64,000 bases of DNA, taken from IMG/VR virus record IMGVR_UViG_3300025011_000016; one strand, given 5' to 3'. Positions 5,672-58,063 of this stretch are shown here, piece after piece. The notes beneath the pieces are model-generated. The model was not told the DNA's origin, did not search any database, and saw nothing but the letters and a program-made list of their open reading frames with translations. Both the position numbers and the translations under genes were made by a program. The number at the start of each line of letters is the position of its first letter. Within the stretch, counting starts at the first letter, position 1. The DNA is from a virus (Duplodnaviria; Caudoviricetes).

Positions 5672-6442
5672 ATGGAAAGGTGGTATTATATGTTATATAA
5701 TAGACATAACTACTTAAATAAGAATATTGAATTTCTAGTATCTAATGAGATAATTGAATATGATATGCAATCGGCAGGTTTCAATATATTAAAGTATTAT
5801 AAATTAGTTAGTGATGATAAATTAAATTTTTTAGAATCTCTTGGTAAGAAAGAAAGACATGTTCAAATCGGATTGTATCAAAGGGCTGATAAAGTATTAG
5901 CTAGACAACTTAATGACAAATTTATTGAAACACGTAAATGGTTCTTTGAACAAAATGAGTTAATTGATGAAGATATTTTATCTATAAAGAAAGATGCAGT
6001 CATTACTTTCAAACGATGTTTAGTAACAGAACTAGATAATATTAAGTTTATTGAAAAGAATATATATACATCATATTACTATTTAAATAAATTGGAATTT
6101 TATTATAACAATAATGTCATTCATGTCAAAGGTATTAATGATGATTTGTTGAAATTACATTCAGAGTATATGCTAGACTTTTTACATATGTTTTTTCGAA
6201 TGAATGAAACTATTAAGGTTAAAAAGATCATTGAGTATTTAAAAGAGTTTTCACATTATTATAAAAATAGACATCTTGAAATTGGTTATTATAGAGAGTT
6301 GAATAAACAATCATTATTTAAATTAAATGATAGTCTATTTAATTCCCCATTAGGAATACGTGATATTGGTGACGTTGGTGAGATAAATATAGATTATAAT
6401 TATCTAAATTATCTTATTCCTTTGATCGGCATATTAATTTAA
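5672..6442 (+). CDS. small family-B DNA polymerase palm-like protein
   Basis: EYDMQSAGF (motif A-like) and LSIKKDAV (motif C-like). Confidence 0.45.
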   Translation: MERWYYMLYNRHNYLNKNIEFLVSNEIIEYDMQSAGFNILKYYKLVSDDKLNFLESLGKKERHVQIGLYQRADKVLARQLNDKFIETRKWFFEQNELIDEDILSIKKDAVITFKRCLVTELDNIKFIEKNIYTSYYYLNKLEFYYNNNVIHVKGINDDLLKLHSEYMLDFLHMFFRMNETIKVKKIIEYLKEFSHYYKNRHLEIGYYRELNKQSLFKLNDSLFNSPLGIRDIGDVGEINIDYNYLNYLIPLIGILI

Positions 6443-15800: not shown

Positions 15801-16515
15801 CTATGTATTTTATCTAAGTAGTAAAAAACGTGAAGAAGTAATTAAGAAATCTGATGATTGGGCTTATTGCGAACTAAGCCGATTAATAGGAAACGGTGTA
15901 GAGGCCATCGAGCAATCGTATGTTATAGATTATATAACATATGATTGAGTAGAGTACTGGTCGGTTTGCGGGCCGATTGGGAAGCGCATGGCTCCAATAC
16001 TATAGATATATAATATTGGATGAAGATATGGTCCACCCCTATATGAAAATATAGGATGTGGTGTTCGACGGCCAATGTATATGACCGGTGATTCTTTAAT
16101 TGACGGGAATATCCTTAAAGCTTAGACTACTAATGTAATAATGTTTAAGATTGGACAATCCGCAGCCAAGTCTCTTATATAAGAGAAAGGTTCAACGACT
16201 AGAGTGAGAACTCGTAGATACTTTATGTATTGAAATGGGAAACCGATAGATTAAATCTATCGAAGATATAGTCTATTATCCTAATGAGTATTAGGGAAGT
16301 TCATAAGAGAACTGTATAGATTTATAATCTATATGAATATAAAGGATATATTGAATATTATTTCACTGAAGACTAAGAAACTAATTAAAGCTTATGATAA
16401 GACATTTAATCCGAGAAAGAATATGTTCATTTCTAGAAATGATGGATTATTTAATGATGATTTCAATCTACTAAAAGATCAACTTATTGGTCTATATGAG
16501 TTTAACAATATTTAA
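12831..16515 (+). CDS. rpoC: RNA polymerase beta'-like catalytic subunit (N-terminal part); 6 exons 12831-13037, 13333-14025, 14334-14609, 14917-15030, 16064-16072, 16345-16515, about 489 aa
   Basis: Spliced product restores the Zn-binding CKC..C..C, GHIKD|QILGGRINF, NRNP|TIN and NAD|FDG|DILN (NADFDGD); AGGAGG before ATG 12831. Confidence 0.9.
13038..13332 (+). ncRNA. group I intron (ORF-less, 295 nt)
   Basis: P1 GGAU/GUCC; P/Q/R/S elements; 3' G at 13332; joins ASD|WGD in frame. Confidence 0.9.
14026..14333 (+). ncRNA. group I intron (ORF-less, 308 nt)
   Basis: P1 GGAU/GUCC; P/Q/R/S; joins HIKD|QILGGR. Confidence 0.88.
14610..14916 (+). ncRNA. group I intron (ORF-less, 307 nt)
   Basis: P1 CCCU/GGGG; P/Q/R/S; joins NRNP|TINY. 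Confidence 0.9.
15031..16063 (+). mobile_element. group I intron (1033 nt, divergent core) carrying a GIY-YIG homing endonuclease
   Basis: P1 CGGAU/GUCCG; P4 ACGGU/ACCGU; S GAAGAUAUGGUC; ends ...GUGGUG just before TTC GAC GGC. Confidence 0.85.
15265..15948 (+). CDS. intron-encoded GIY-YIG homing endonuclease
   Basis: VVYIMRN....VYIGQT, conserved R and E, GYN motif; lies between the Q and R elements of the intron. Confidence 0.88.
   Translation: MRILIKPYGVVYIMRNLIDTKVYIGQTVNLERRKNEHKNRKSSSSKRYNFHITKVIEEYGYENFEFKVLDEAFSKKDLDDKEKYFISLFKSNDPKYGYNSRGGNLQEPLNQRTKDLMSSSHIGLTETAITKRKKSHKILAFKDNVCLIVDSGKLFGDMIGKDRNNVTNALRKGIKIKGYYVFYLSSKKREEVIKKSDDWAYCELSRLIGNGVEAIEQSYVIDYITYD
16073..16344 (+). ncRNA. 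group I intron (ORF-less, 272 nt) with an apparent C at the 5' splice site
   Basis: P/Q/R/S elements; removal joins FDG|DILN; P1 CGGC/ACCG. Confidence 0.82.
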
Positions 16516-33629: not shown

Positions 33630-36600
33630 TTGGTTAATAAGAAATTTAAACTATCTATAAATGAGCAACCAAAAAAAATTGCCATCAAATTTGACATTTC
33701 GATTTTGAATTCTATGATCGGGTTTTTATTTAAACAATCAGTGCAAATTAATAGGAAAGCTCTTAATAATATGAAAAAATTATTTGATATTATTGATACA
33801 ACGATATATGAAGGTAATGATAAACTTGAAGCACGACTTAATTTTATAAAAACAGCTTTGGACGCTCGCATAACTAAACAATTCGAAAATGAAAGTATGA
33901 TTATAAATTTCTGTCGCGGTGATACTTATAATAAAGATACTGAAGAAATTATATCAGCAATCGGGGCCTATCGCAGAATAAACTACGAGGAGATAAAATT
34001 TATAAACAAAGCAATCCAAGATAGATTGAAATACTCTTATCTATTAGATATTAAAGATAGAATGTATAATGTTGTAGAGAAAATAGATTCTGGGGATTTT
34101 GAAAGCTTTCAGGATGTTAATGATGAATTAGTTGGACTATGTTCTCACCTATTGAATAAAACCAGAAAAACAAGTGTTCTTGATGATGTGACAACTTTTA
34201 GTTTAGATTCAGAATCATTTGAAACATCGATTACAGATATAGTCAATGCTCTCAGAGATCCATCAAAAAAATATAGGTGGCATTGTAGAGTAATTTACAA
34301 TGATAAACTTCTTTAATTGCGGGAAATCTCTTAGAGCTTCTTAATTGAAGATTGAGTAATCTGCATCCAATATTGTTAATACAACAATAAGGTTCAACGA
34401 CTAGAGTGTAAACTCGTAGATATATGAAATATATCGAAATGGGAAGCATCCTTGATGAAAAAGGTTGATGATATAGTCTTGTATCTTAATGTAAATTAAG
34501 GAAGTTCATAAGAGAACTGTATAGGAGTACATACCTATATGAAAAAACGCACGTATTTTGAAAACAGGCTTGAAAATGCTGAACCAGATACTGGCCCCTG
34601 GCTTTATATCTAAACGATTGTATATGTTTTTAGGCTTACCAGCTTATAAATAAGGTTGGCTCATTGGTAACAATGTGATATAAACTTCTTTAATTGCGGG
34701 GAACTTCTCATAGCTTTATACTAATAAAGATTGGACAATCCGCATCCAATATTCTTATAATAAGAATAAGGTTCAACGACTAGAGTGTAAACTCGTAGAT
34801 ATCGATAATATTGAAATGGGAAGCTCTCTTATTATATAAGAGATGAAGAGATAGTCTGGTATCCTATATTAATATAGGGAAGTTCATTTGAGAACTGTAT
34901 AGATTAATTATCTATATGAACATATCGGGTTTTAAATCAGGTATATTATTGAAAACTGCTAGAGATATAAAAAAGTATAATAAAGGAATTAAACCTAAAA
35001 AAGCAGGTAAAAAACCATGTGTATTATTACTAACACTTGAAAACTCAATTAGTGAATCCGTAGAGAGATTATTTAACATGGTTAGTACTTCTGAGGATAT
35101 TAGGAATTTTACTCCTAAGCAAGTTATTAAGAAATTAAAAGAAGATGGTGAATTAGTATTAACTGATGATGACGATATTGATATTATTATTAAATATTAT
35201 CCAAATAGAAGTATTGATACCTCTGATATATATACTATAGTTGAAGAATTAGCTGATGATGACAAAGAGGTAATAGCTTTAATTTTAGACTATATTAAAA
35301 GAATACGACCTGCTGAAAAAGCTAGTGACGAAAAAGAAGAATTAAAGAATATTACCAATGAATTGAAGAATCTAGCTACAGAATTAGATATACCAGTTAT
35401 TTCAGCCCATCAATATAGGGTGGCTTTATAGAGTGATTTATAAAGAGAACTTTTTTAATTGCAGGAAACTCCTTAGGACTTTATATAATAAAGATTGGAC
35501 AATCTGCATCCAATATTGTTAATACGACAATAAGGTTCAACGACTAGAGTGTGAACTCGTAGATATATAAGTTAATGATATATCGAAATTGAAAGCATCT
35601 AATAAGATGGTGATATAGTCTTGTATCCTATAGAAATATAGGGAAGTTCTTAAGAACTGCATTATATTACGAATAATGTGAAAATCGCAAATGAATAGAG
35701 CTGGAGCAAGTTCAGTTGATGCCGCATTACAAGCTAATAAAGAAGACTTGGCTAAATTTGTAGGTAGAGCCAATGTTGGAAGTGCCTATATTTCATGGGC
35801 CGCATGATGGTAATGTCATGTTGATACTTTTTTAATTGCAGGAAACTCCTTAGGACTTTATATAATAAAGATTGGACAATCTGCATCCAAGATTCTTACA
35901 TAAGAATAAGGTTCAACGACTAGAGTGTGAACTCGTAGATACTTTATGTATCGAAATGGAAAGCAACCTAATTTATAGGTTGAAGAGATAGTCTGGAATC
36001 CTAATGAGAATTAGGGATGTTTGAATAGAACTGGATTATATTACAAGTAATCTGAACATTACGGGGAAGTTTGTATAGAAGCTTCAACATACAGTAATGT
36101 ATGTTTTAAATTTTCTTTAATTGTCGGGGATCTCCTTATAGCTTAAACTACTTTCAATATAGTAATAATGTTTAAGATTGGACAATCCGCATCCAAGTCT
36201 CCCAAAAGAGAAAGGTTCAACGACTAGAGTGTAAACTCGTAGATACATTACGTATCGAAATAAGAAACCCCTTTATATAAAAAATATAGAGGGTGAAGAT
36301 ATAGTCTTGTATCCTAATTAATAATAGGGAAGTTCATAAGAGAACTGTATAAGTTTATGACTTATATGAAAATAACGACTTGAAAACTCAGATTGGGTAT
36401 GTATCATAAACGTCGAGCGTAAGAAAGGAACCGATCAATATTACTTAACCTTTAAAAGAGTTAAGATTCGTTATAGAGATCCAAATGATTTAGGTTATTT
36501 CAATCATCCATTTGATATTCAAAATAGAATGAAGCTTATTGACGACATATATTTAGAAAAATCATTATCTGAAGAAAGTCTAATGAGTGATTTTGAAGGT

Positions 36601-41792: not shown

Positions 41793-44615
41793 ATGAAAAT
41801 TGTACCTAATAAACAACAAAAGAAAGCTGTTATTGAATCAGTGAAATGGTTAAAGAGTGGTTATAAACAAGTCTTTGAAATATCAGGTCCTCCAGGATCA
41901 GGTAAAACCTTTATAGTTTATTTAATACGAAAGGCAATGAAGCTAAATCCCTTGGATGTTCTATTTATGGCATATGTAGGAAAAGCTACAATGGCTTTGA
42001 CATTACAAGGTAATAATGCAAAGACAATGCATAGTTCTATTTATGATAGGGTTGATTTACCTAAGATGGATGAGAATGGTAAGTTTATTTTAAAAAATGG
42101 TAGAATACTTACAACTCCTGGTTTTGTTAAGAAAAAATCTTTACCTGATAATATAAAACTTATAGTGGTGGACGAAGGTTCTATGATTAATGAAAAATAC
42201 GCTTTAGATATTTTAAGCTTCAAGTTACCAGTTTTAGTGCTCGGGGACTTAAATCAGCTTTTTCCTATCTTTGGGAAACCTTATTTCTTAAGACAACCTG
42301 ATATTATATTAACAGAAATTATGAGACAGGCTAAAGATGATCCTATTATTCATTTAAGTCAAAAGGCAATTAATGGTGAAATTATTGAGATAGGAAAATA
42401 TGGTGATAGATGTTTTGTTATTAATAAAGAAGATATCACAGACAATATGCTTACAAAAACAGATATCGTTATTTGTGGTAAAAATAAGACACGGGATCAT
42501 ATAAATAAATATGTTAGAGAAGAAATATATAAAATAGACAAGCCTTATCCAGTAAAAGGTGAGAAATTAATATGTAGACAAAATAATTGGGATATGTCTG
42601 TCGATGAAGGTAAAATATTCTTAGTTAATGGTCTTGTAGGTTACGTTGAAGAAACACATTTAGACACTTATAATAAAAGATCTTTATGTATTGATTTTAG
42701 GCCTGAGTTTTTAAAAGAAACTTGTTTTGAAAGAGTAGCAATTGATTCTTTTATGAGTCACGTTGCATAGTAATATGCAATTGCAACTACTTTAATTGCG
42801 GGAAACTCCTTAGAACTTTATCTACTAATGTAACATGATAAAGATTGGACAATCTGCAGCCAATGATCTATTCATAATAGATTTAGGTCCAACGACTAGA
42901 ATGGGAAAGTTCGTAGGGCTCAAGTGAGTGGGTGAGACTCCCTTAAATCGAAATGGGTGGCCCCATTATAATAATTAGTATAATGGGTGAAGATATAGTC
43001 TGTGCTTTAAGGAAACTTAGAGAATAACTAACCGTAAGTCTTAATAACTATTCTGTATATAATTATATTATACAGTTAACAAATAATATAAGAACGGGGG
43101 TGATATAAAATGATTAAGACTTTTAAAACAAGAATACGACCGAATAAAGAACAAGAGGTATATTTAAATAAGTGCTTTGGGTATAGAAGGTTTATATATA
43201 ATAATGCGTTAGAATACTTTAATACTCTTTTAAAATATAATAATAATGTTATTGATAAGGATTTAAAGAAGTTCTTTGATAAATTTGATTATATTACTCA
43301 TATATATTCTAAGAAAGAAAAGGGACCGGGATTTGAATGGACTAAAGAATATAATAAGTCCATAAAGAATGAAGTGGCTAGTGATGTTAACTTAGCTGTT
43401 AATAGATTTTTTAAAGATATTAAAAATAAGAAGCGTTGTAAACTGCATTTTAAAAGAAAGGTTCATGGAAATGGATCGTTTAGAATATATAGTAAGCATA
43501 AAACTAATGTTATGATTCTTGATATGAAATTATTCTCTTTTATTATTAATAGAGAATTTGGTCATATGTCATTAAAAACATATGAGGACATAAGTTTCTT
43601 ATATCATCATGATATAAAAACAATGACTATTAGTATGAAGAATTTTAAATATTATGTCTCATTTACTTATGAAATAGATGTTCCAAAGCATAAGCATGAG
43701 AAAGATACCATAGGTATAGATTTAGGGATACATAATCCGGTAGTTTGTTTTGATGGAAAAGATATCATAAATCCTAAATTTCCGAAAGGAATTATTAAGA
43801 AACTAGAGAAGAGAGCCGATAAATTTTCAACGATAGTTTCTAAGAAGAAATATGATAAATGTAATCCATCAAAGAACTATATAAAAGCGAGAACCAAGCT
43901 TAATTATATTCATGGTAAGATAGTGAATATTAGAATGGATTATATTCAGAAGGTTTCAACCTTCTTAACTAAGACTTATAGAAATATCGTAGTTGATGAA
44001 TTTAGTTTTAAAGAATTACTAACAGAGTCTGATGGTATTAAACGTATTAATAGAGGTATACATAGAGTAGGTGCCTTTACGTTTATGCAAGTGTTAAAAT
44101 ATAAATGTCACTTTTACGGCAGTGAATATATTTTAGCCGAACCTAATAGTACCATTACATGCTCTGAATGTAATCATAAACTTAAAACTAAGTTGAAGTT
44201 ATCCCAAAGAGTCTTTAATTGTCCTGATTGTGGATATATAGATGATAGGGATAATAATGCGGCTATTAATATTTATAAGTCATATAAGAATCTTTATTAA
44301 CTAACGTAAATAGAGATTTCGCCGTTGGTCGGACGGTTTAAAGAACCTTGACGGTTAAGTTATTGTGGTATCTAACGAATACTACTAACACGACAGTATA
44401 AGCATTTATTTACACCATATGAACAGAGAGATAATAAACGTAGCTATTATAATAAATTTGAATTTGCCAACGCAATAAGCGTTCATTTATCACAAGGATC
44501 ACAATATAATACAGTTTTAATATATAATGAAAGAATGGGAGATAAAGAGTATTATAAGAAATGGTTATATACAGCAATATCGAGAGCGGTATCCGGATTA
44601 GTATTGGCCGTTTAA
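41793..44615 (+). CDS. RecD/Dda-like SF1B helicase; exons 41793-42746 and 44397-44615, about 390 aa
   Basis: GPPGSGKT, VVDEGSMI, LGDLNQL, LTEIMRQ; exon 2 supplies FANAISVHLSQGSQY and LYTAISRA. Confidence 0.9.
43110..44300 (+). CDS. tnpB: TnpB RNA-guided endonuclease (IS605 OrfB family)
   Basis: N-terminal KTFKTRIRPNKEQ HTH; RuvC GIDLG, VVDEF, DRDNNAAINI; CSEC...CPDC Zn finger. Confidence 0.93.
   Translation: MIKTFKTRIRPNKEQEVYLNKCFGYRRFIYNNALEYFNTLLKYNNNVIDKDLKKFFDKFDYITHIYSKKEKGPGFEWTKEYNKSIKNEVASDVNLAVNRFFKDIKNKKRCKLHFKRKVHGNGSFRIYSKHKTNVMILDMKLFSFIINREFGHMSLKTYEDISFLYHHDIKTMTISMKNFKYYVSFTYEIDVPKHKHEKDTIGIDLGIHNPVVCFDGKDIINPKFPKGIIKKLEKRADKFSTIVSKKKYDKCNPSKNYIKARTKLNYIHGKIVNIRMDYIQKVSTFLTKTYRNIVVDEFSFKELLTESDGIKRINRGIHRVGAFTFMQVLKYKCHFYGSEYILAEPNSTITCSECNHKLKTKLKLSQRVFNCPDCGYIDDRDNNAAINIYKSYKNLY
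44300..44396 (+). ncRNA. putative omegaRNA scaffold / IS605 right end (5' limit uncertain, may extend into tnpB)
   Basis: Nearly identical block at 56285-56381; hairpins GCCGUU/GACGGU and GUGGUAU/AUACUAC. Confidence 0.65.
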
Positions 44616-44646
44616 TACATAATATTATTTGAAAGGAGTTAGTATA

Positions 44647-45898: not shown

Positions 45899-48800
45899 AT
45901 GGCTAAATTTACAGATGATCAAATAGAACACATAGAAAGTGACATAGAGAAGATTCAGACTAAGCCTAAATATAATTGGGCTATTATATAGTGATATATA
46001 ATATAAACTTTTTTAATTGACGGAAACTTCCTTAGAGTCTAAACTACTAAATTGATATTTTAGTATATTGATGGCTGAGTGTAATTAACTCAGGTATAGT
46101 AATAATGTTTAGGATTGGATAATCCGCATCCAAGTCTCTTATAATAAGAGAAAGGTTCAACGACTAAATGTAGAGCTCAAGTGAGTGGGTGGAAATCCCT
46201 TAAATCGAAATGGAAAGCATCTTTAATAAAAGATGATGATATAGTCTTATATCCTAATGAAAATTAGGGAAGTTCATAATAGAACTGCACAGCTCAGCAA
46301 ACTGTGTGAAATAATGAATATGTACGTCAGCTATTTAGCACACCTAGGCGCATTACATTTATCTAAAGAGGTAATAAATAATTCTATAGATGAATGTATT
46401 AATCAAAATTCACCAGCTAACGAAATTAATATATATTTAGATGAAGGTGAGAATACTTTACTAGTTGCTGATAATGGTAGAGGAATAGCTTTCGATAAAA
46501 TGGAAATTGTGTGCACTAAATTACAAGCAGGTAGTAAGTTTACCAGAGAGGGTAGTGGTGGAGCTTCTGCTGGAGAAAACGGGTGTGGCATTACGGCCGT
46601 GAATTCGCTGTCGGAACACTTTGAGATAATCTCAACTCGTTATGGTGAAAGGGCTATAATTGAATTTGAATCTGGTAAGTTGGTCAGGTCACCAGTAATT
46701 AAAAAAATCGGTGATAAAACTAAACACGGTACTACAGTAAAATTTAAACCCAATCCATTTTACATGGGTGACGATTGTGATATCCCAACAGATTTATTGA
46801 TTGAATGGATTGAAAAAATAGTTTATTTAATGCCATCAAATATAGAAATATCACTAAGTGTCTCCAGAAAAGGTAAAGAATCTGCAATAAATAAAAAGTA
46901 TCGTAATAAAAATGGTTTAAAGGACTATATTTTGAAATTGTGTAAAAAGCCTATTTTAGATCCAATTCATTTTATGAAATCTTTAAAAATTAAAGAATTT
47001 GATAAAGGTAGAGAGATCGAAAGATTCATTGGATTAGAAACAGCTTTTACTTACAATTCAAATAGTATGGAACCTATTATTGAATCATTTTGTAATTTTG
47101 TGGTCACTGTTGAAGGGGGTATTCACAACGATGCTGTTAAACAAGGTGTTGTCCAATTCTTAGTTAGGAAAACTAAGGAGGGTTTATCTGATAAAGAATC
47201 GAAAAATATTGATATACTACCTATAGACGCTACTCAAGGATTAGTGTTGACATTATACTTAAGTACCGATATGAATATGATGTTTGCATCACAAACGAAA
47301 GAAAAACTTTCTAATAATGCTTTCTTCAAACCACTCAGAAACATGACATTTAATTCATTGGATGAATACTTTAAAAAAGAAGTTAATGATTTAAAGAAGA
47401 TAACAAGTTTTATTAAGACTAATGCTAAAGCAAGAATTGAATCAAACAAAGCTAGAAATGCTGTTATTAAAGGTGAAACTACTTCATTCGAAGAACACAA
47501 AATGAAGAATTTCTCTCCTGCAAATAATTTAGGGAATGATTACAGAGAGTTATTTGTTATAGAAGGTAAATTAGATTGCCTTATTTTCTTTAATTGACGG
47601 GAAACTCCTTAGAACTTCTTAATTGAAGATTGGACAATCCGCAGCCAAGTCTCTTTATATAAGAGAAAGGTTCAACGACTAGAGTATGTAAGCTCGTAGG
47701 TTTATTTATAATCCGAAATGGGAAAACAATAGATTTATTCTATTGAAGAGATAGTCTAATATCCTAATTAACATTAGGGAAGTTCATAAGAGAACTGTAT
47801 AGAGTTATAATCTATATGAATGATTGGATTCAGCAAAGGGTAGTGCAAGGTTAGGTAGGGATACGGATACTCAGGCATTATTTGCAATGCGAGGAGTTCC
47901 ACTTAATAGTTTTAATCTAAAGTTAGATAAAGTTTTATTGAATGATGAATTTAGGGATTTAACTAAAGTATTAAAATGTAATATCGGTGAACGATTTGAT
48001 ATTACAAAACTAAATTATAAAAAAATAATCATACTTACGGATGCGGATTAATTCATAGTCCCATTATGTAGTGATATATAATGTAAACTTCTTTAATTGA
48101 CGGGAAACTCCTTAGAACTTCTTAATTGAAGATTGGACAATCCGCAGCCAAGTCTCTTTATATAAGAGAAAGGTCCAACGACTAATAGTAGGGCTCAAGT
48201 GAGTGGGGTAATAACACCCTTTAAATCGAAAATAGAGGCATCTTTTATAAGATGATGATATAGTCTACACTTTATTGAAAGATAAAGAAAGATAGCATCT
48301 TTACATTATCTAACGAATAATGTTAATATGAATGGATTGATGGTTTGAGAATAGCCTCACTAATTTGTGTATTCTTCTTATGTCATATGCCAGAGATAAT
48401 TAAGCAAGGATATTTATATAAATCAGTATCACCACTATATTTATTAAATGATACTAAGGGTCATTTTATTATTGATAAAAAAGAGTATGTATCAGTTTTT
48501 GAAAAAGCTGTTAGAAATAACATTAAAGTTATTGATCCAGAAACTAATATTGTTTATACTAATAATGAGATGAAAGAGTTACTATTAAAGAATAGGGGAT
48601 ATTTAGAGGAGTTATACCGAGTTAGTAATCATTTTGCAGTTAATCCTTTTATCATTGAATACATCACCATATATGGGGATCAATCAAATTTCATAAATAA
48701 AATGAAAAAGAAATTCCCTGAGTTAACACTTGATGAAGAAAATGTTTTATCTGGTATATATGAAGGAAAATATCAGATTATTATATTGGATAAAATATTC

Positions 48801-55790: not shown

Positions 55791-56381
55791 TCATATTGAG
55801 TCTCGTTGCATAGTAATATGTAATTGTAACTACTTTAATTGCGGGAAACTCCTTAGTGCTTAAAACACTTTTAAAGTAACAAAGTTTAAGATTGGACAAT
55901 CCGCAGCCAAAGTTATTATTTAATAACGAGGCTCAACGACTATCCCAATGGTACTAAAATGTACATTAGGAGTAGGGCTCAAGTGAGTGGGTGAGATTCC
56001 CTTAAATCGAAAAGGGTAGCCCCATTATTATAATGGGTGAAGATATAGTCTGTGCTTTAAGGAGACTTAGAGATATAACTTAACCGTAAGTAAGTCTTAA
56101 TAATTCATTCTTAATAAGATATTATTATAGTTATAACAAATAATATAAGAAGGGGGTGACGATAAATGTTTAAAACTTTTAAATACATCTGACTAAAAAA
56201 GCTATGTATTGACACGAAACTTATAAATAATGGCGATAACCAAGCCTATTAATAATATTTATAAGTTGTAAAAATCTTTATTAACTAGCGTAAATAGAGA
56301 TTTCGCCGTTGGTCGGACGGTTTAAAGAACCTTGACGGTTAAGTTATAAGTGGTATCTAACTAATACTACTAACACGACAG
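55791..56381 (+). mobile_element. non-autonomous IStron-like group I intron (591 nt, tnpB deleted) between the SD and start codon
   Basis: 5' end, core and 3' end are homologous to 42747-44396; residual tnpB ends (ATGTTTAAAACTTTTAAA ... AATATTTATAAG...AATCTTTATTAA). Confidence 0.88.
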
Positions 56382-56385
56382 GAAT

Positions 56386-58063
56386 ATGTCTATTACTAAA
56401 CAGGCTAGAAAACAAATGGAATTATTAATTTATTCAGTATTTACAGCTTTAGATCCAACTGGTTCTAATACTGCTAAATATAAAGAATTATTTGGTAAAA
56501 TGAATGATACTCAATTTGATAAATTCTTCAAAGATTTCTTTAAAGAGGAAGATGAGTATCTTATATTAGACGTTATTGATTATGAGTTAAATCTTCAAAT
56601 GGAAGATGTAGAAAGAGCTGCAAAGATTCTTGATGTACCTTTATTCGAAAAAGTTGCAATGCCATTTATTAACAACAATACAGAAAATCCTGTTGTTACT
56701 CAATATGAAGTTCCGGTTGGTTACATTAACTTGAAACGGGTTCAACAAATATTAGCTAAAAAAAATACTACATCTACAGAAATATCAACACGTTCTGCTA
56801 TAACAGGACAAGTTGTTGGTAAGGATAAAAATGCCAGAGATTCAGATCAGGAGAATTTTGCTCTTGTCACTTTAAATGCTACGAACACATTACGTGAGCT
56901 TTTGGGTTATGTTGCTTAGCCCCTATATACGGTAACGTATATAGCAAACTTCTTTAATTGCAGGAAATTCCTTAGAGCTTATTATATGAAGATTGGATAA
57001 TCTGCATCATATTTTCTAATGATTAAAATATTTTCTTACTAATAAATATACAATATTTTAAAGGATGTGAATTATAAAAATGTATATAGTCATTCGTAAA
57101 GATAGAGAAATATTTAAACTTGTAACATATCCTAAAGTCAAACCTGATACTTATGAAGTTAGTAATTATGGTAATATTAGAAATTTAAAAACTGGCAAAT
57201 TAGTAAAATTATTTCCCGATACAAAAGGTTATCCTTTTGCAAATCTTATGTATAAAAAATCCATTGCTCGTAGTGTTAATATCCATAGGTTGGTAGCGTG
57301 GGAATTTGTAGATGGATATGATATAGATCGAGGGAGAACTAATGTTAATCATCTGGACAGCGATCCTACTAATAATTATTATGAAAACCTTGAATGGGTT
57401 ACAACTAAAGAAAATAATCAACATGGTATTAAACATGGTAAGATTAGATTTGGTGCAGGTGGTAGTCTAAATTATAAAGCTAGATATAATGAAGAATTTT
57501 GTTCGTAAACTATGTCCATACATTGAAAAAGGACTCACTCAAATGGAAATAATGCATATTTACGGTTATAAAACAAGAAAAGAAAATAAAAGTTTATATT
57601 CTTTAATAGATGGAATTTACTGGGGTGTGTGGAGAGAGGTATCAAAAGAATTTAATATTAATATAAAACAAGAAAAATGTTCAACGACTATCCTTTAGAT
57701 GTGAAATTCATCATTAGGAGTAGGGCCTAAGTAGGTGGGTGAGACTCCCTTAAATCGAAATAAGAAGCATCTTATATAAGATGATGATATAGTCTTGTAT
57801 CCTATATAACTATAGGGAAGTTCATAAGAGAACTGCATAGATTAACGAACTATGTGAAAGTATCGCCCAGGAGTGATGACCTTGTGATGAAAAATCAAAT
57901 GTATGCTAGTATAGCTCAAAAAGGATATGTATCACTAGATGAACTACCGAACGATGTTGCCAATAAAACAACGCTGAATACAATTGATGTGCATCTTATT
58001 GGCTTAGGTATTAAAAGCGATTTAATCACTCAAGGATTATTAGTTAGAAAGACTATGAAATAA
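56386..58063 (+). CDS. rpoB: RNA polymerase beta-like C-terminal subunit; exons 56386-56907 and 57866-58063, about 239 aa
   Basis: VPVGYINLKRVQQ, TGQVVG, TLRELLG|PRSDD match the bacterial beta C-terminus (VGYMY.LKL, TLQEMLTVKSDD). Confidence 0.82.
56908..57865 (+). mobile_element. group I intron (958 nt) carrying an HNH homing endonuclease gene
   Basis: P1 GGGU/GCCC; P/Q before and R/S after the ORF; 3' G at 57865. Confidence 0.9.
57080..57698 (+). pseudogene. NUMOD4-HNH homing endonuclease, frameshifted near 57497-57500
   Basis: YEVSNYGNIR, IHRLVA..F, VNHLD....NN...NLEW; the C-terminal part continues in another frame after a TTTT run. Confidence 0.75.

What the first reader, a model, noticed from the sequence alone, without database searches (positions are those of the whole stretch)
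42780..43020. The IStron ribozyme core belongs to the phage's own mini-intron family, suggesting in situ assembly or decay
Seen: both IStron-like cores share TTAATTGCGGGAAACTCCTTAG, AAGATTGGACAATC(C/T)GCAGCCAA and GTAGGGCTCAAGTGAGTGGGTGAGA(C/T)TCCCTTAAATCGAAA with the ORF-less introns (e.g. 46160-46210, 48185-48230). They differ mainly after the S element, where tnpB and the right end replace the usual P9 tail. The same family also hosts an HNH gene in the Q-R loop (56908-57865). Inference: one ribozyme scaffold alternately recruits HNH or TnpB, giving a snapshot of IStron birth, or of mini-introns derived from IStrons.
Basis: inference. Interest (0 to 1): 0.72.

Follow-up and report, generated by a model that had tools for sequence, protein, structure and literature searches.

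The report
Phage IStron built on resident intron family
A jumbo phage carries self-splicing introns armed with an RNA-guided nuclease gene (tnpB), and their RNA core belongs to the same family as the phage's many gene-less introns. The nuclease module is an older, shared lineage, so this is not an IStron being born in this genome.

Summary
The two IStron-type cores (42747-43022 and 55791-56072) share the quoted motifs with the window's ORF-less group I introns. An HNH gene sits in the P6 loop of a sister intron (56908-57865).

In trees, the phage's four IStron cores form one clade. Their nearest relatives are the resident mini-introns. They do not group with C. difficile, C. botulinum phage c-st or 15 other bacterial IStron cores, so the stated refutation is not met. 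Formal AU support is weak, and Staphylococcus phage introns are about as similar by raw identity.

"IStron birth in situ" is not supported. The TnpB, the GAT| target and an unusual layout are shared with unannotated IStrons in Staphylococcus jumbo phages Machias and LY01, and with two other IStrons: a Waltera intestinalis genome and an unassigned metagenome contig. In this layout the cargo replaces P9.1, directly after P9, instead of following P9.2 as in described IStrons. In the Staphylococcus phages the IStron cores again nest among the local mini-introns.

A related phage has an uninterrupted helicase at the insertion site. Decay is seen once, as the 591-nt tnpB-deleted copy. Most mini-introns keep the canonical P9.1 and are not IStron remnants.

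I rate this a new architectural variant of a known kind, of moderate interest.

The parts
41793..42746 (+). Exon 1 of a RecD/Dda-like helicase. It ends in ...GCA ATT GAT, so TTGAT immediately precedes the 5' splice site.
   Evidence: Pfam AAA_30, AAA_19 and PIF1. Reading frame. Similarity between the IStron copies starts exactly after GAT (alignment A3).
42747..43022 (+). Group I (IA2, Twort-like) ribozyme P1-P9 of IStron-1. P1 is GAUUC/GAGUC with a U.G pair at the splice site. P2 is 42763-42780, the long P7.1/P7.2 motif is 42913-42953, and the P9 hairpin is 43004-43022.
   Evidence: RF00028 at 80.8 bits, model positions 1-253. Rfam alignment. Trees.
43023..43109 (+). Left-end spacer. It holds the 5' strand of the long-range P9.1-position helix (43023-43038, AATAACTAACCGTAAG), a 23-nt palindrome (43053-43075) and the tnpB ribosome-binding site.
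   Evidence: Alignment A3. MFE fold of the natural deletion copy shows this strand paired to the right end.
43110..44300 (+). tnpB, 396 aa. It has the HTH_OrfB_IS605, OrfB_IS605 and Cas12f1-like TNB domains. RuvC-I D204, RuvC-III D381 and the CxxC...CxxC zinc finger are present. The RuvC-II position reads D296-E297 where homologues read E-D.
   Evidence: Pfam. Alignment A1 invariant columns. Column check. TnpB trees.
44301..44396 (+). Right end and presumed omega-RNA scaffold 3' part. It holds the 3' strand of the P9.1-position helix (44347-44363), a P9.2-like hairpin GGTAT-CTAACGA-ATACT (44367-44383) and the terminal ACTAACACGACAG (44384-44396). The 3' splice site lies after G44396.
   Evidence: Alignment A2: near-invariant up to CGACAG, then unrelated sequence in all 4 copies. 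The 13-mer TATCTAACGAATA occurs elsewhere in the window only in the P9.2 of intron 48039.
44397..44616 (+). Helicase exon 2 (...ANAISVHLSQGSQ... motif). Its first ~16 nt (TATAAGCATTTATTTA) would be the omega-RNA guide.
   Evidence: In frame with exon 1. A related phage has the uninterrupted sequence ...ATAGAT|TATCG... at this position. The guide role is inferred from IS605 TnpB biology (PMC10690162).
55791..56381 (+). tnpB-deleted mini-IStron, 591 nt. It keeps the same P1-P9 core, a remnant of the tnpB start (ATGTTTAAAACTTTTAAATAC...), a remnant of the tnpB 3' end and an intact right end. It sits between the RBS (AAGGAGGAT|) and the ATG of ORF 56386-56919.
   Evidence: Sequence. 78-84% identical to the other cores. 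Alignments A2 and A3. Fold.
56908..57865 (+). Sister intron of the resident family. It carries an HNH/NUMOD4 homing-endonuclease ORF (57080-57508) in the P6 loop and keeps the canonical P9.1 and P9.2 tail.
   Evidence: Pfam HNH_3 and NUMOD4. Sequence. It nests among the resident mini-introns in the tree. Canonical P9.1 at 57818.
48049..48330 (+). One of the two most IStron-like ORF-less introns; the other, intron 68782, lies outside the window. It has a GGAT| target, the long P7.1/P7.2 motif, an IStron-type P9, a non-canonical short P9.1, and a P9.2 loop identical to the IStron right-end hairpin. The 3' end coordinate is approximate.
   Evidence: It branches next to the IStron clade, together with mini_L007_7201.

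Best explanation
The element at 42747-44396 is a working-type IStron. It combines a Twort-like IA2 group I ribozyme that splices the element out of the helicase mRNA with a TnpB nuclease gene and a right-end guide-RNA scaffold. TnpB would cut intron-less NNGAT|exon-2 alleles, so that repair copies the element in (homing).

It belongs to an old and distinct IStron lineage. In this lineage the cargo (tnpB plus omega-RNA) occupies the P9.1 position, directly after P9 and closed by a left-end:right-end helix. The P9.2 hairpin and the last ~13 nt lie downstream of the cargo. The lineage also occurs in Staphylococcus jumbo phages and in some bacteria.

Its catalytic core (P2-P8) belongs to the same phage-borne intron pool as the genome's ORF-less introns. 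I infer that cores and cargo are reshuffled within a phage lineage, so an IStron core comes to resemble its co-resident mini-introns. The routes would be recombination between co-resident introns, occasional cargo loss, and possibly cargo gain.

Shown here: the anatomy, the family relationships, the shared architecture and one decay product. Inferred: splicing, TnpB activity, homing, and the recombination route.
For: Anatomy. Similarity among the 4 copies starts right after GAT and ends at CGACAG, with unrelated flanks. Both exon joins are in frame or restore RBS-ATG spacing. RF00028 covers the full model. The TnpB domains, two of the three RuvC acidic positions (D204, D381) and the zinc finger are conserved; RuvC-II reads D-E (see evidence against).

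Kinship. The IStron cores form one clade (100/99). The clade of all 25 introns of this phage has 99/93 support in the 126-row tree and 52/87 in the 154-row tree. After the other IStron cores, the best BLAST hits are resident mini-introns (66-129 bits) and 3' halves of Staphylococcus phage introns (72-118 bits); no bacterial IStron is among the 32 best hits listed per query.

Old cargo lineage. The TnpB clade of this phage (4), Machias/LY01 family A (5) and the Waltera IStron has 100/98* support under LG+C20. Its sister P0005 is also an IStron with cargo directly after P9. The LE:RE helix, the ...CAG| end and the GAT| target are shared.

Different cargo site. C. difficile, Leptotrichia, Anaerovibrio and Paenibacillus IStrons keep P9, P9.1 (AAGTTCATAAGAGAACT), P9.2 and GAACGA upstream of the IS. 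That 17-mer is present in 14 resident introns and 12 of 20 bacterial IStron cores, and in none of the three IStron-type copies in this record.

Replication. The five Staphylococcus family-A IStron cores nest inside a 100/99* clade with 30 co-resident compact mini-introns. Forcing the IStron cores of this phage and of Staphylococcus family A into one clade, as their TnpBs are, costs 70.5 lnL (p-AU 0.026).

Insertion. A related phage has an uninterrupted helicase site.
Against: AU tests on a ~290-column alignment are weak. Grouping the phage IStron cores with the C. difficile cores costs 48 lnL but gives p-AU 0.175, so it is not rejected. Support for the joint IStron-plus-mini-intron clade varies with the alignment (52/87 versus 99/93), and the position of mini_68782 is unstable.

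By raw identity the IStron cores are no closer to the resident mini-introns (mean 69%) than to the Staphylococcus phage K and MarsHill introns (67-74%).

Trees of the 5' and 3' halves give no resolved recombination signal.

The TnpBs in the shared clade are only ~32% identical and sit on long branches, and the tool gave a long-branch warning. At that depth the ribozyme sequences would be saturated anyway.

No tnpA was found in the 100 kb held. RuvC-II reads D-E instead of E-D. No expression, splicing or cleavage data exist.

The bacterial IStron sample is limited to the first 120 loci that match exact R and S motifs.
Confidence: 0.55

Rival explanations
1. In situ birth. A plain TnpB insertion sequence landed in, or was captured by, one of this phage's own mini-introns, and the window shows the new chimera.
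For: The cores are closest to the resident mini-introns. The cargo sits in a peripheral helix position, like the HNH ORF of the sister intron. No close TnpB relative (>35% identity) exists outside this phage among 5.8 billion proteins.
Against: The same TnpB clade, cargo position, LE:RE helix, GAT| target and ...CAG| end occur in Staphylococcus jumbo-phage IStrons and in two further IStrons, L086 in a Waltera genome and L016 on an unassigned metagenome contig. Four or five copies are already 8-19% diverged in the core and 12-17% in TnpB. The mobile unit's ends coincide with the splice sites, not with an internal IS. The helicase site is empty in a relative.
Confidence: 0.08
2. Decay. The phage's mini-intron swarm as a whole descends from IStrons that lost tnpB.
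For: One certain deletion derivative exists, at 55791-56381. Mini-introns 48039 and 68782 have the GAT| target, an IStron-type P9, a non-canonical short P9.1 and a P9.2 loop like the right-end hairpin, and they branch next to the IStron clade. ORF-less IStrons are known for BcISt1 (PMC4227781).
Against: Fourteen resident introns carry the canonical P9.1 17-mer, which is shared with Staphylococcus phage introns and CdISt1-type IStrons but absent from every member of this cargo lineage. They would have had to regain it. Most mini-introns sit at CCCT|, GCCT|, CCAT| or TCCT| sites rather than GAT| (read by eye). The proven decay product keeps ~300 nt of IS sequence, and the mini-introns keep none.
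Confidence: 0.12
3. Import as a unit with no special relation to the residents. The resemblance is only what any two Twort-like IA2 phage introns share, and the tree signal is an alignment or base-composition artefact.
For: Much of the quoted motif set is the universal P/Q/R/S core. Identity to Staphylococcus phage K and MarsHill introns (67-74%) equals that to the residents. AU tests are weak. The genome is AT-rich, and shared composition could pull sequences together.
Against: Three independently aligned trees put all 25 introns of this phage together, with up to 99/93 support. The same pattern appears, with 100/99 support, in Machias and LY01 with a quite different compact core. IStron-3 shares exact runs of 36 and 29 nt in variable peripheral elements (the P5 extension and P7.1) with mini-intron 16056 and the HNH intron. 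The 5' block AAGATTGGACAATCCGCAGCCAA found no match in 50,697 phage records.
Confidence: 0.2

Closest known systems
Group A (IS200/IS605-type) IStrons: CdISt1 / CdiIStrons of Clostridioides difficile and relatives (Tourasse 2014, PMC4227781; Zedaveinyte 2023, PMC10690162)
   Same: An IA2 Twort-like ribozyme sits at the 5' end, with tnpB and the right end at the 3' end. Element ends coincide with splice sites. The target is TTGAT-like, with GAT pairing to the guide sequence in P1. There is no target duplication. Copies lack tnpA. ORF-deleted derivatives exist.
   Different: The cargo follows P9 directly and replaces P9.1, whereas in every IStron described by Tourasse et al. it lies after P9.2 and a GAAYRA motif. 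Ribozyme cores are only 56-63% identical and lie in a separate tree clade. The TnpB lies in a different clade, at ~27-30% identity. The host is a jumbo phage.
IS607-type IStrons CbISt3/CbISt4 (CboIStron) of C. botulinum phage c-st and plasmid p1BKT015925
   Same: These are IStrons carried by a phage, combining self-splicing with TnpB/omega-RNA.
   Different: They use a serine-recombinase TnpA and a TGGG target, and keep P9.1 and P9.2 upstream of the IS. In the c-st loci scanned here (which include CbISt3), right ends match Rfam RAGATH-18 and the ribozyme is not detected by RF00028 at all. TnpB identity is 27%.
Unannotated IStrons of Staphylococcus jumbo phages Machias (MW349128) and LY01 (OR836606), 'family A'
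   Same: They share the TnpB clade (100/98*), cargo directly after P9, the LE:RE helix, a ...ACAAGACAG| end and a GGAT|/AGAT| target. There are several copies per genome, and the core resembles the co-resident ORF-less introns.
   Different: The ribozyme is compact (~190 nt) and lacks P7.1/P7.2 and the long P5. TnpB is only ~32% identical. GenBank records call the gene 'transposase' or 'hypothetical protein'.
HEG-bearing Twort-like introns of Staphylococcus phages (K lysK, MarsHill RNAP beta, Quidividi Mre11)
   Same: The ribozyme family is the same: P7.1/P7.2 motif GTAGGGCTCAAGT..., an almost identical P9, and 67-74% identity to the IStron cores. The cargo sits in a peripheral loop.
   Different: The cargo is a protein-guided HNH-type endonuclease in the P6 loop, and the canonical P9.1/P9.2 tail is retained.

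Membership tests
IStron (group I intron + IS200/IS605-family element) | A group I ribozyme at the 5' end of the element | tested here: met
   RF00028 at 80.8 bits over model positions 1-253 at 42738-43022. P1-P9 alignment.
IStron (group I intron + IS200/IS605-family element) | An IS605-type ORF B (TnpB) downstream on the same strand, inside the intron | tested here: met
   Pfam HTH_OrfB_IS605, OrfB_IS605 and Cas12f1-like_TNB at 43110-44300. The ORF is intact and 396 aa long.
IStron (group I intron + IS200/IS605-family element) | Element boundaries coincide with splice sites, and removal restores the host gene | tested here: met
   Copy-to-copy similarity begins after GAT and ends at CGACAG. 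The helicase frame is restored. The relative's uninterrupted helicase aligns across the junction.
IStron (group I intron + IS200/IS605-family element) | A conserved short target / TAM at the 5' flank (TTGAT for group A) | tested here: met
   The 5' flanks are TTGAT, AGGAT, TAGAT and ATGAT in the four copies. Only GAT is constant.
IStron (group I intron + IS200/IS605-family element) | The IS component lies downstream of P9.2, after a GAAYRA motif (stated as universal in PMC4227781) | tested here: not met
   The cargo begins right after P9. The canonical P9.1 is absent, and a P9.2-like hairpin lies downstream of the cargo. This is a layout feature of the described members, not the definition of the class.
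IStron (group I intron + IS200/IS605-family element) | Self-splicing and TnpB/omega-RNA-guided cleavage actually occur | not testable with these tools
   No transcript or biochemical data are available. RuvC-II reads D296-E297 instead of E-D.
IStron (group I intron + IS200/IS605-family element) | A TnpA (Y1) transposase in cis or in trans | tested here: inconclusive
   Only one sub-threshold PF01797 hit (18.6 bits, cut-off 23) in the 100 kb held. The other ~148 kb of the phage was not searchable.
The phage's resident ORF-less IA2 intron family | Nearest relatives in an ML tree are the resident introns, to the exclusion of bacterial IStron cores | tested here: met
   Support for the joint clade ranges from 52/87 to 99/93. 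The AU test does not reject the clade (p 0.44) but also does not reject a C. difficile grouping (p 0.175).
The phage's resident ORF-less IA2 intron family | The canonical tail: P9.1 (AAGTTCATAAGAGAACT), then P9.2, then GAAxxxxCG| | tested here: not met
   The P9.1 17-mer follows P9 in 14 resident introns but in no IStron-type copy. The P9.2-like hairpin and the AACACGACAG end are retained.

The most novel reading that the evidence does not exclude
In jumbo phages with intron swarms, a single ancient TnpB/omega-RNA cassette rides in the P9.1 position and keeps its own ends: a P1 that reads GAT|, the LE:RE helix, P9.2 and ...CAG|. Its catalytic middle (P2-P8) is repeatedly exchanged with co-resident ORF-less introns. 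The IStron and the mini-intron swarm would then be one recombining population. The RNA-guided nuclease could seed or maintain the swarm, and cargo loss and gain would run in both directions.
Probability: 0.3. Interest if true: 0.75.

Novelty: new variant of a known kind. Interest (0 to 1): 0.5.

Why it matters
IStrons are the one known place where a ribozyme, a transposon and an RNA-guided nuclease share a single RNA. How such chimeras form and diversify is an open question. Tourasse et al. proposed multiple origins but reported a fixed cargo position. Zedaveinyte et al. reported recurrent gain and loss of cargo among close introns.

This window adds three things:
- A second cargo position, in P9.1.
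- A jumbo-phage branch of TnpB IStrons that public annotation has missed. Machias and LY01 call them 'transposase' or 'hypothetical protein'.
- A replicated pattern in which the ribozyme core tracks the local intron population while the nuclease module is old.

If the nuclease is active, these phages use a programmable TnpB as a homing endonuclease in essential replication and transcription genes. That matters for phage-phage competition, and these compact TnpBs (396-413 aa) have an NNGAT-type target.

Tried and rejected
- Megablast of the IStron against 50,697 phage records found no match.
- blastn of the core against PLSDB plasmids found no match.
- Single-protein search for related loci in viral and genome contigs found no relatives.
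Loci L004, L007 and L163 are not in a held record.
- Rfam RF00028 failed on the known CbISt3 ribozyme in phage c-st, on the Machias/LY01 IStron cores and on L016. I therefore discarded my first reading that the nearest TnpB relatives lack introns, after inspecting L016 by eye.
- I first placed the 5' splice site after ATGAGT and the 3' end at 44391. Both were wrong. P1 pairing, copy-to-copy alignment and recounting give 42746|42747 and 44396|44397.
- The AU test of 'phage IStron cores + C. difficile cores' did not reject that grouping, despite a cost of 48 lnL.
- Separate 5'-half and 3'-half trees, built to detect recombination, were unresolved.
- The TnpA search gave only a sub-threshold hit.
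- Related phages L166 and L167 have few or no RF00028 hits and no TnpB, so they gave no orthologous-site series beyond the empty helicase site in L163.
Full report
**What is there**

The window is the minus strand of an IMG/VR record of 100,486 bp, estimated 42% complete. Its last 5 kb is 100% identical to a 248-kb groundwater metagenome scaffold, so the phage is a ~248-kb jumbo phage. RF00028 finds 14-15 full group I introns in the window and 22 in the record.

The stretch named in the finding is the ribozyme of a 1,650-nt element at 42747-44396. Its parts are:
- P1-P9, at 42747-43022 (RF00028 80.8 bits, whole model).
- A spacer.
- An intact tnpB, at 43110-44300 (Pfam HTH_OrfB_IS605, OrfB_IS605 and Cas12f1-like TNB).
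- A 96-nt right end.

The element splits a RecD/Dda-like helicase. Exon 1 ends ...ATT GAT and exon 2 starts TAT AAG, in frame.

A second copy (55791-56381, 591 nt) has the same core and right end but has lost almost all of tnpB. It lies between the ribosome-binding site and the ATG of ORF 56386-56919. A third copy splits the DNA ligase gene just outside the window. A fourth (L004) lies elsewhere in the 248-kb genome. A fifth TnpB (P0002) sits on a short contig.

**The observation**

All three quoted motifs are present and far above chance. The third motif is exact only in the two IStron-type cores and is diverged in the ORF-less introns. Parts of the motif set are the universal P/Q/S elements of group I introns, so I did not treat motif sharing as evidence of close kinship and went on to quantitative comparisons.

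**True ends**

Aligning the four copies shows that similarity starts immediately after GAT and stops at ...AACACGACAG. The four 5' flanks are TTGAT, AGGAT, TAGAT and ATGAT, and the sequence downstream of the end is unrelated in each copy. P1 is GAUUC/GAGUC, with the U.G pair at GAU|U. The conserved GAT is therefore both the P1 exon strand and a TTGAT-like transposon-adjacent motif, as described for C. difficile IStrons (PMC10690162). A phage with a 60%-identical helicase has the uninterrupted sequence ...ATAGAT|TATCG... at this point.

**Is the core kin to the resident mini-introns or to bacterial IStrons?**

I collected comparators by scanning genome contigs for the R...S motif pair. This returned 120 loci. 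Twenty of them are IStron cores:
- Fifteen have a TnpB ORF downstream (hmmsearch), among them Leptotrichia, Anaerovibrio, Lysinibacillus and Paenibacillus.
- Five are C. difficile CD160 copies at contig ends.

I added CbISt3 of phage c-st, using coordinates from the supplement of PMC4227781. I also added the Staphylococcus phage K and MarsHill introns.

| Comparison with the phage's IStron cores | Identity over kept columns |
|---|---|
| Each other | 81-92% |
| Resident mini-introns | 63-80% (mean 69%) |
| Phage K and MarsHill introns | 67-74% |
| C. difficile IStron cores | 56-63% |
| Other bacterial IStron cores | 48-66% |

BLAST with each IStron core ranks the other IStron copies first. Resident mini-introns (66-129 bits) and 3' halves of Staphylococcus phage introns come next. 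No bacterial IStron is among the 32 best hits listed per query.

ML trees agree. The IStron cores form a clade (100/99) that is sister to, or inside, the clade of resident introns. The joint clade has 52/87 support with 154 rows and 99/93 with 126 rows. The C. difficile cores and most other bacterial IStron cores lie in a separate clade (90/88).

There are caveats. AU tests on ~290 columns are weak: IStron plus mini-introns is not rejected (p 0.44), and IStron plus C. difficile costs 48 lnL but gives p 0.175.

**The cargo is in a different place than in described IStrons**

CdISt1-type elements (C. difficile, Leptotrichia, Anaerovibrio, Paenibacillus) and CbISt3 keep P9, P9.1, P9.2 and a GAAYRA motif upstream of the IS. 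Tourasse et al. state this for all IStrons (PMC4227781). Their P9.1, AAGTTCATAAGAGAACT, is the same 17-mer that follows P9 in 14 resident introns of this record and in the Staphylococcus phage introns. It is absent from all IStron-type copies here.

Here the cargo starts right after P9. The left-end strand ATAACTTAACCGTAAG pairs with the right-end strand CTTGACGGTTAAGTTAT. This helix appears in the MFE fold of the natural deletion copy and is conserved in all copies, with one C-to-U change that keeps a G.U pair. A hairpin follows, GGTAT-CTAACGA-ATACT, whose loop matches the P9.2 loops of the mini-introns. The 13-mer TATCTAACGAATA occurs in the window only in the IStron right ends and in the P9.2 of intron 48039. 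The last element is ACTAACACGACAG|.

So tnpB sits in the P9.1 position, as a peripheral-loop insertion comparable to the HNH ORF in the P6 loop of intron 56908-57865.

**The cargo lineage is old and shared**

The nearest TnpBs outside this phage are only ~33% identical. In a careful LG+C20 tree, the four TnpBs of this phage join five TnpBs of Staphylococcus jumbo phages Machias and LY01 and one from a Waltera intestinalis IStron, with 100/98* support. The sister pair is P0005 plus P0019, at 95/90* (the tool flagged long branches).

Reading the DNA shows that all of these are IStrons with one shared layout: cargo directly after P9, an LE:RE helix, an end in ...CAG|, and, for the Machias/LY01 and Waltera copies, a GAT| target (CGGAT|, TAGAT|, AGAT|). 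P0019 was not inspected. L016, the locus of P0005, shares the layout, but I read its target, tentatively, as TGGT|. GenBank annotates the Staphylococcus phage copies only as 'transposase' or 'hypothetical protein'. The fusion therefore predates this phage, and the window is not a snapshot of IStron birth.

**The cores track the local introns, twice**

In Machias and LY01 the family-A IStron cores are compact (~190 nt). After the other IStron copies, their best matches are the co-resident compact mini-introns, at up to 85% over 130 nt. In the tree the five cores nest inside a 100/99* clade with 30 such mini-introns. Forcing the IStron cores of this phage and of Staphylococcus family A together, as their TnpBs are, costs 70.5 lnL with p-AU 0.026. 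I named that group after seeing the tree, so the p-value is indicative only.

A second LY01 IStron family (B) has no resident look-alikes, so the pattern is not universal.

**Direction**

Decay is directly visible once, in the 591-nt copy. Mini-introns 48039 and 68782 are candidates for older decay products. They have the GAT| target, an IStron-type P9, a short non-canonical P9.1 and an IStron-like P9.2, and they branch next to the IStron clade.

The bulk of the mini-introns keep the canonical P9.1 and P9.2. They sit at CCCT|, GCCT|, CCAT| or TCCT| sites (read by eye). They are therefore ordinary Twort-like introns and not IStron remnants.

IStron-3 shares exact runs in variable peripheral elements: 36 nt with mini-intron 16056 and 29 nt with the HNH intron. 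This hints at module exchange, but the half-alignment trees do not resolve it.

The reading that fits best is one intron pool per phage lineage. In it, an old TnpB cassette keeps its ends while the catalytic middle is shared with, or exchanged with, co-resident introns. This last step is inference.

**Function**

By analogy with characterised IStrons (PMC10690162, PMC13521648), the RNA either self-splices, restoring the helicase, or is bound by TnpB as an omega-RNA whose guide is the first ~16 nt of exon 2. TnpB would then cut intron-less TTGAT-plus-guide alleles in co-infecting phages, and repair would copy the element in.

RuvC-I D204, RuvC-III D381 and the zinc finger are conserved. The RuvC-II position reads D296-E297 where homologues read E-D. 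No tnpA was found in the 100 kb held. None of this function was tested.

**Novelty**

Several things are already published:
- IStrons in general, including two in phage c-st.
- Multiple origins of IStrons.
- ORF-less derivatives.
- Recurrent gain and loss of TnpB or HEG cargo among close introns (PMC4227781, PMC10690162).

I found no paper on IStrons in jumbo phages in the searchable library. The P9.1 cargo position, the jumbo-phage TnpB-IStron lineage and the replicated 'core tracks local swarm' pattern appear to be new variants of a known kind.

Earlier notes of this scan on the same genome had already reported the ligase IStron, the mini-IStron between the RBS and the ATG, and the intron swarm. 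My anatomy agrees with them.

Noticed in passing
L001 (MW349128 Machias 228 kb), L156, L157; L002, L159 (OR836606 LY01): Five TnpB genes annotated 'transposase' or 'hypothetical protein' in Staphylococcus jumbo phages are IStrons. Each has a compact ~190-nt group I core, cargo right after P9, a ...ACAAGACAG| end and a GGAT|/AGAT| target. In Machias one copy appears to split gyrB. RF00028 misses these cores.
   Followed up: partly
L161, L162, L014 (LY01 183 kb, 53.8 kb, 230 kb): LY01 carries a second, unrelated IStron family ('B'). It has a ~320-nt core, a ...TATATAGCAG| end and a different TnpB clade. No co-resident mini-introns resemble it.
   Followed up: partly
L016:1090-2900 (Logan SRR8925765 contig): The sister TnpB (P0005) is also an IStron with cargo directly after P9. 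It interrupts what looks like a Peptidase_S8 gene on a probably bacterial contig. The Rfam scan missed it.
   Followed up: partly
window 57080-57698: The HNH/NUMOD4 ORF of intron 56908-57865 stops at 57508. A second ORF (57489-57698, 69 aa) overlaps it in another frame. The homing endonuclease may be frameshifted or decaying.
   Followed up: no
window 43110-44300, residues 296-297: All TnpBs of this phage read Asp-Glu at the RuvC-II position where 27 of 31 aligned homologues read Glu-(Asp/other). The acidic pair is kept but swapped. Its effect on activity is unknown.
   Followed up: partly
window ~6161-6280 (inside ORF 5672-6442): This is the only Y1_Tnp (PF01797) signal in the record, at 18.6 bits, below the cut-off of 23. 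It is probably not a TnpA, so no transposase for the IStrons was found in the 100 kb held.
   Followed up: no
L036, L040, L061 (genome-contig scan): Twort-like IA2 introns with exact R and S motifs also occur in candidate-phyla-radiation MAGs (Dojkabacteria, Gracilibacteria, Patescibacteria), some from groundwater. This is a possible lead to the unknown host range of such phage introns.
   Followed up: no
L010-L013 (phage c-st): Rfam RAGATH-18 matches sit at the 3' end of each IS607-type tnpB in phage c-st, and a HEARO RNA lies in L010. The right end of the present IStron matches no Rfam family.
   Followed up: no
window 35778-36329, 15916-16296; record positions 68061-69038 in window-equivalent coordinates: Introns stand in tandem, separated by exons of only 9-55 nt. 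For example, 36016 to 36061 is 44 nt, and 16055/16056 are nearly adjacent.
   Followed up: no
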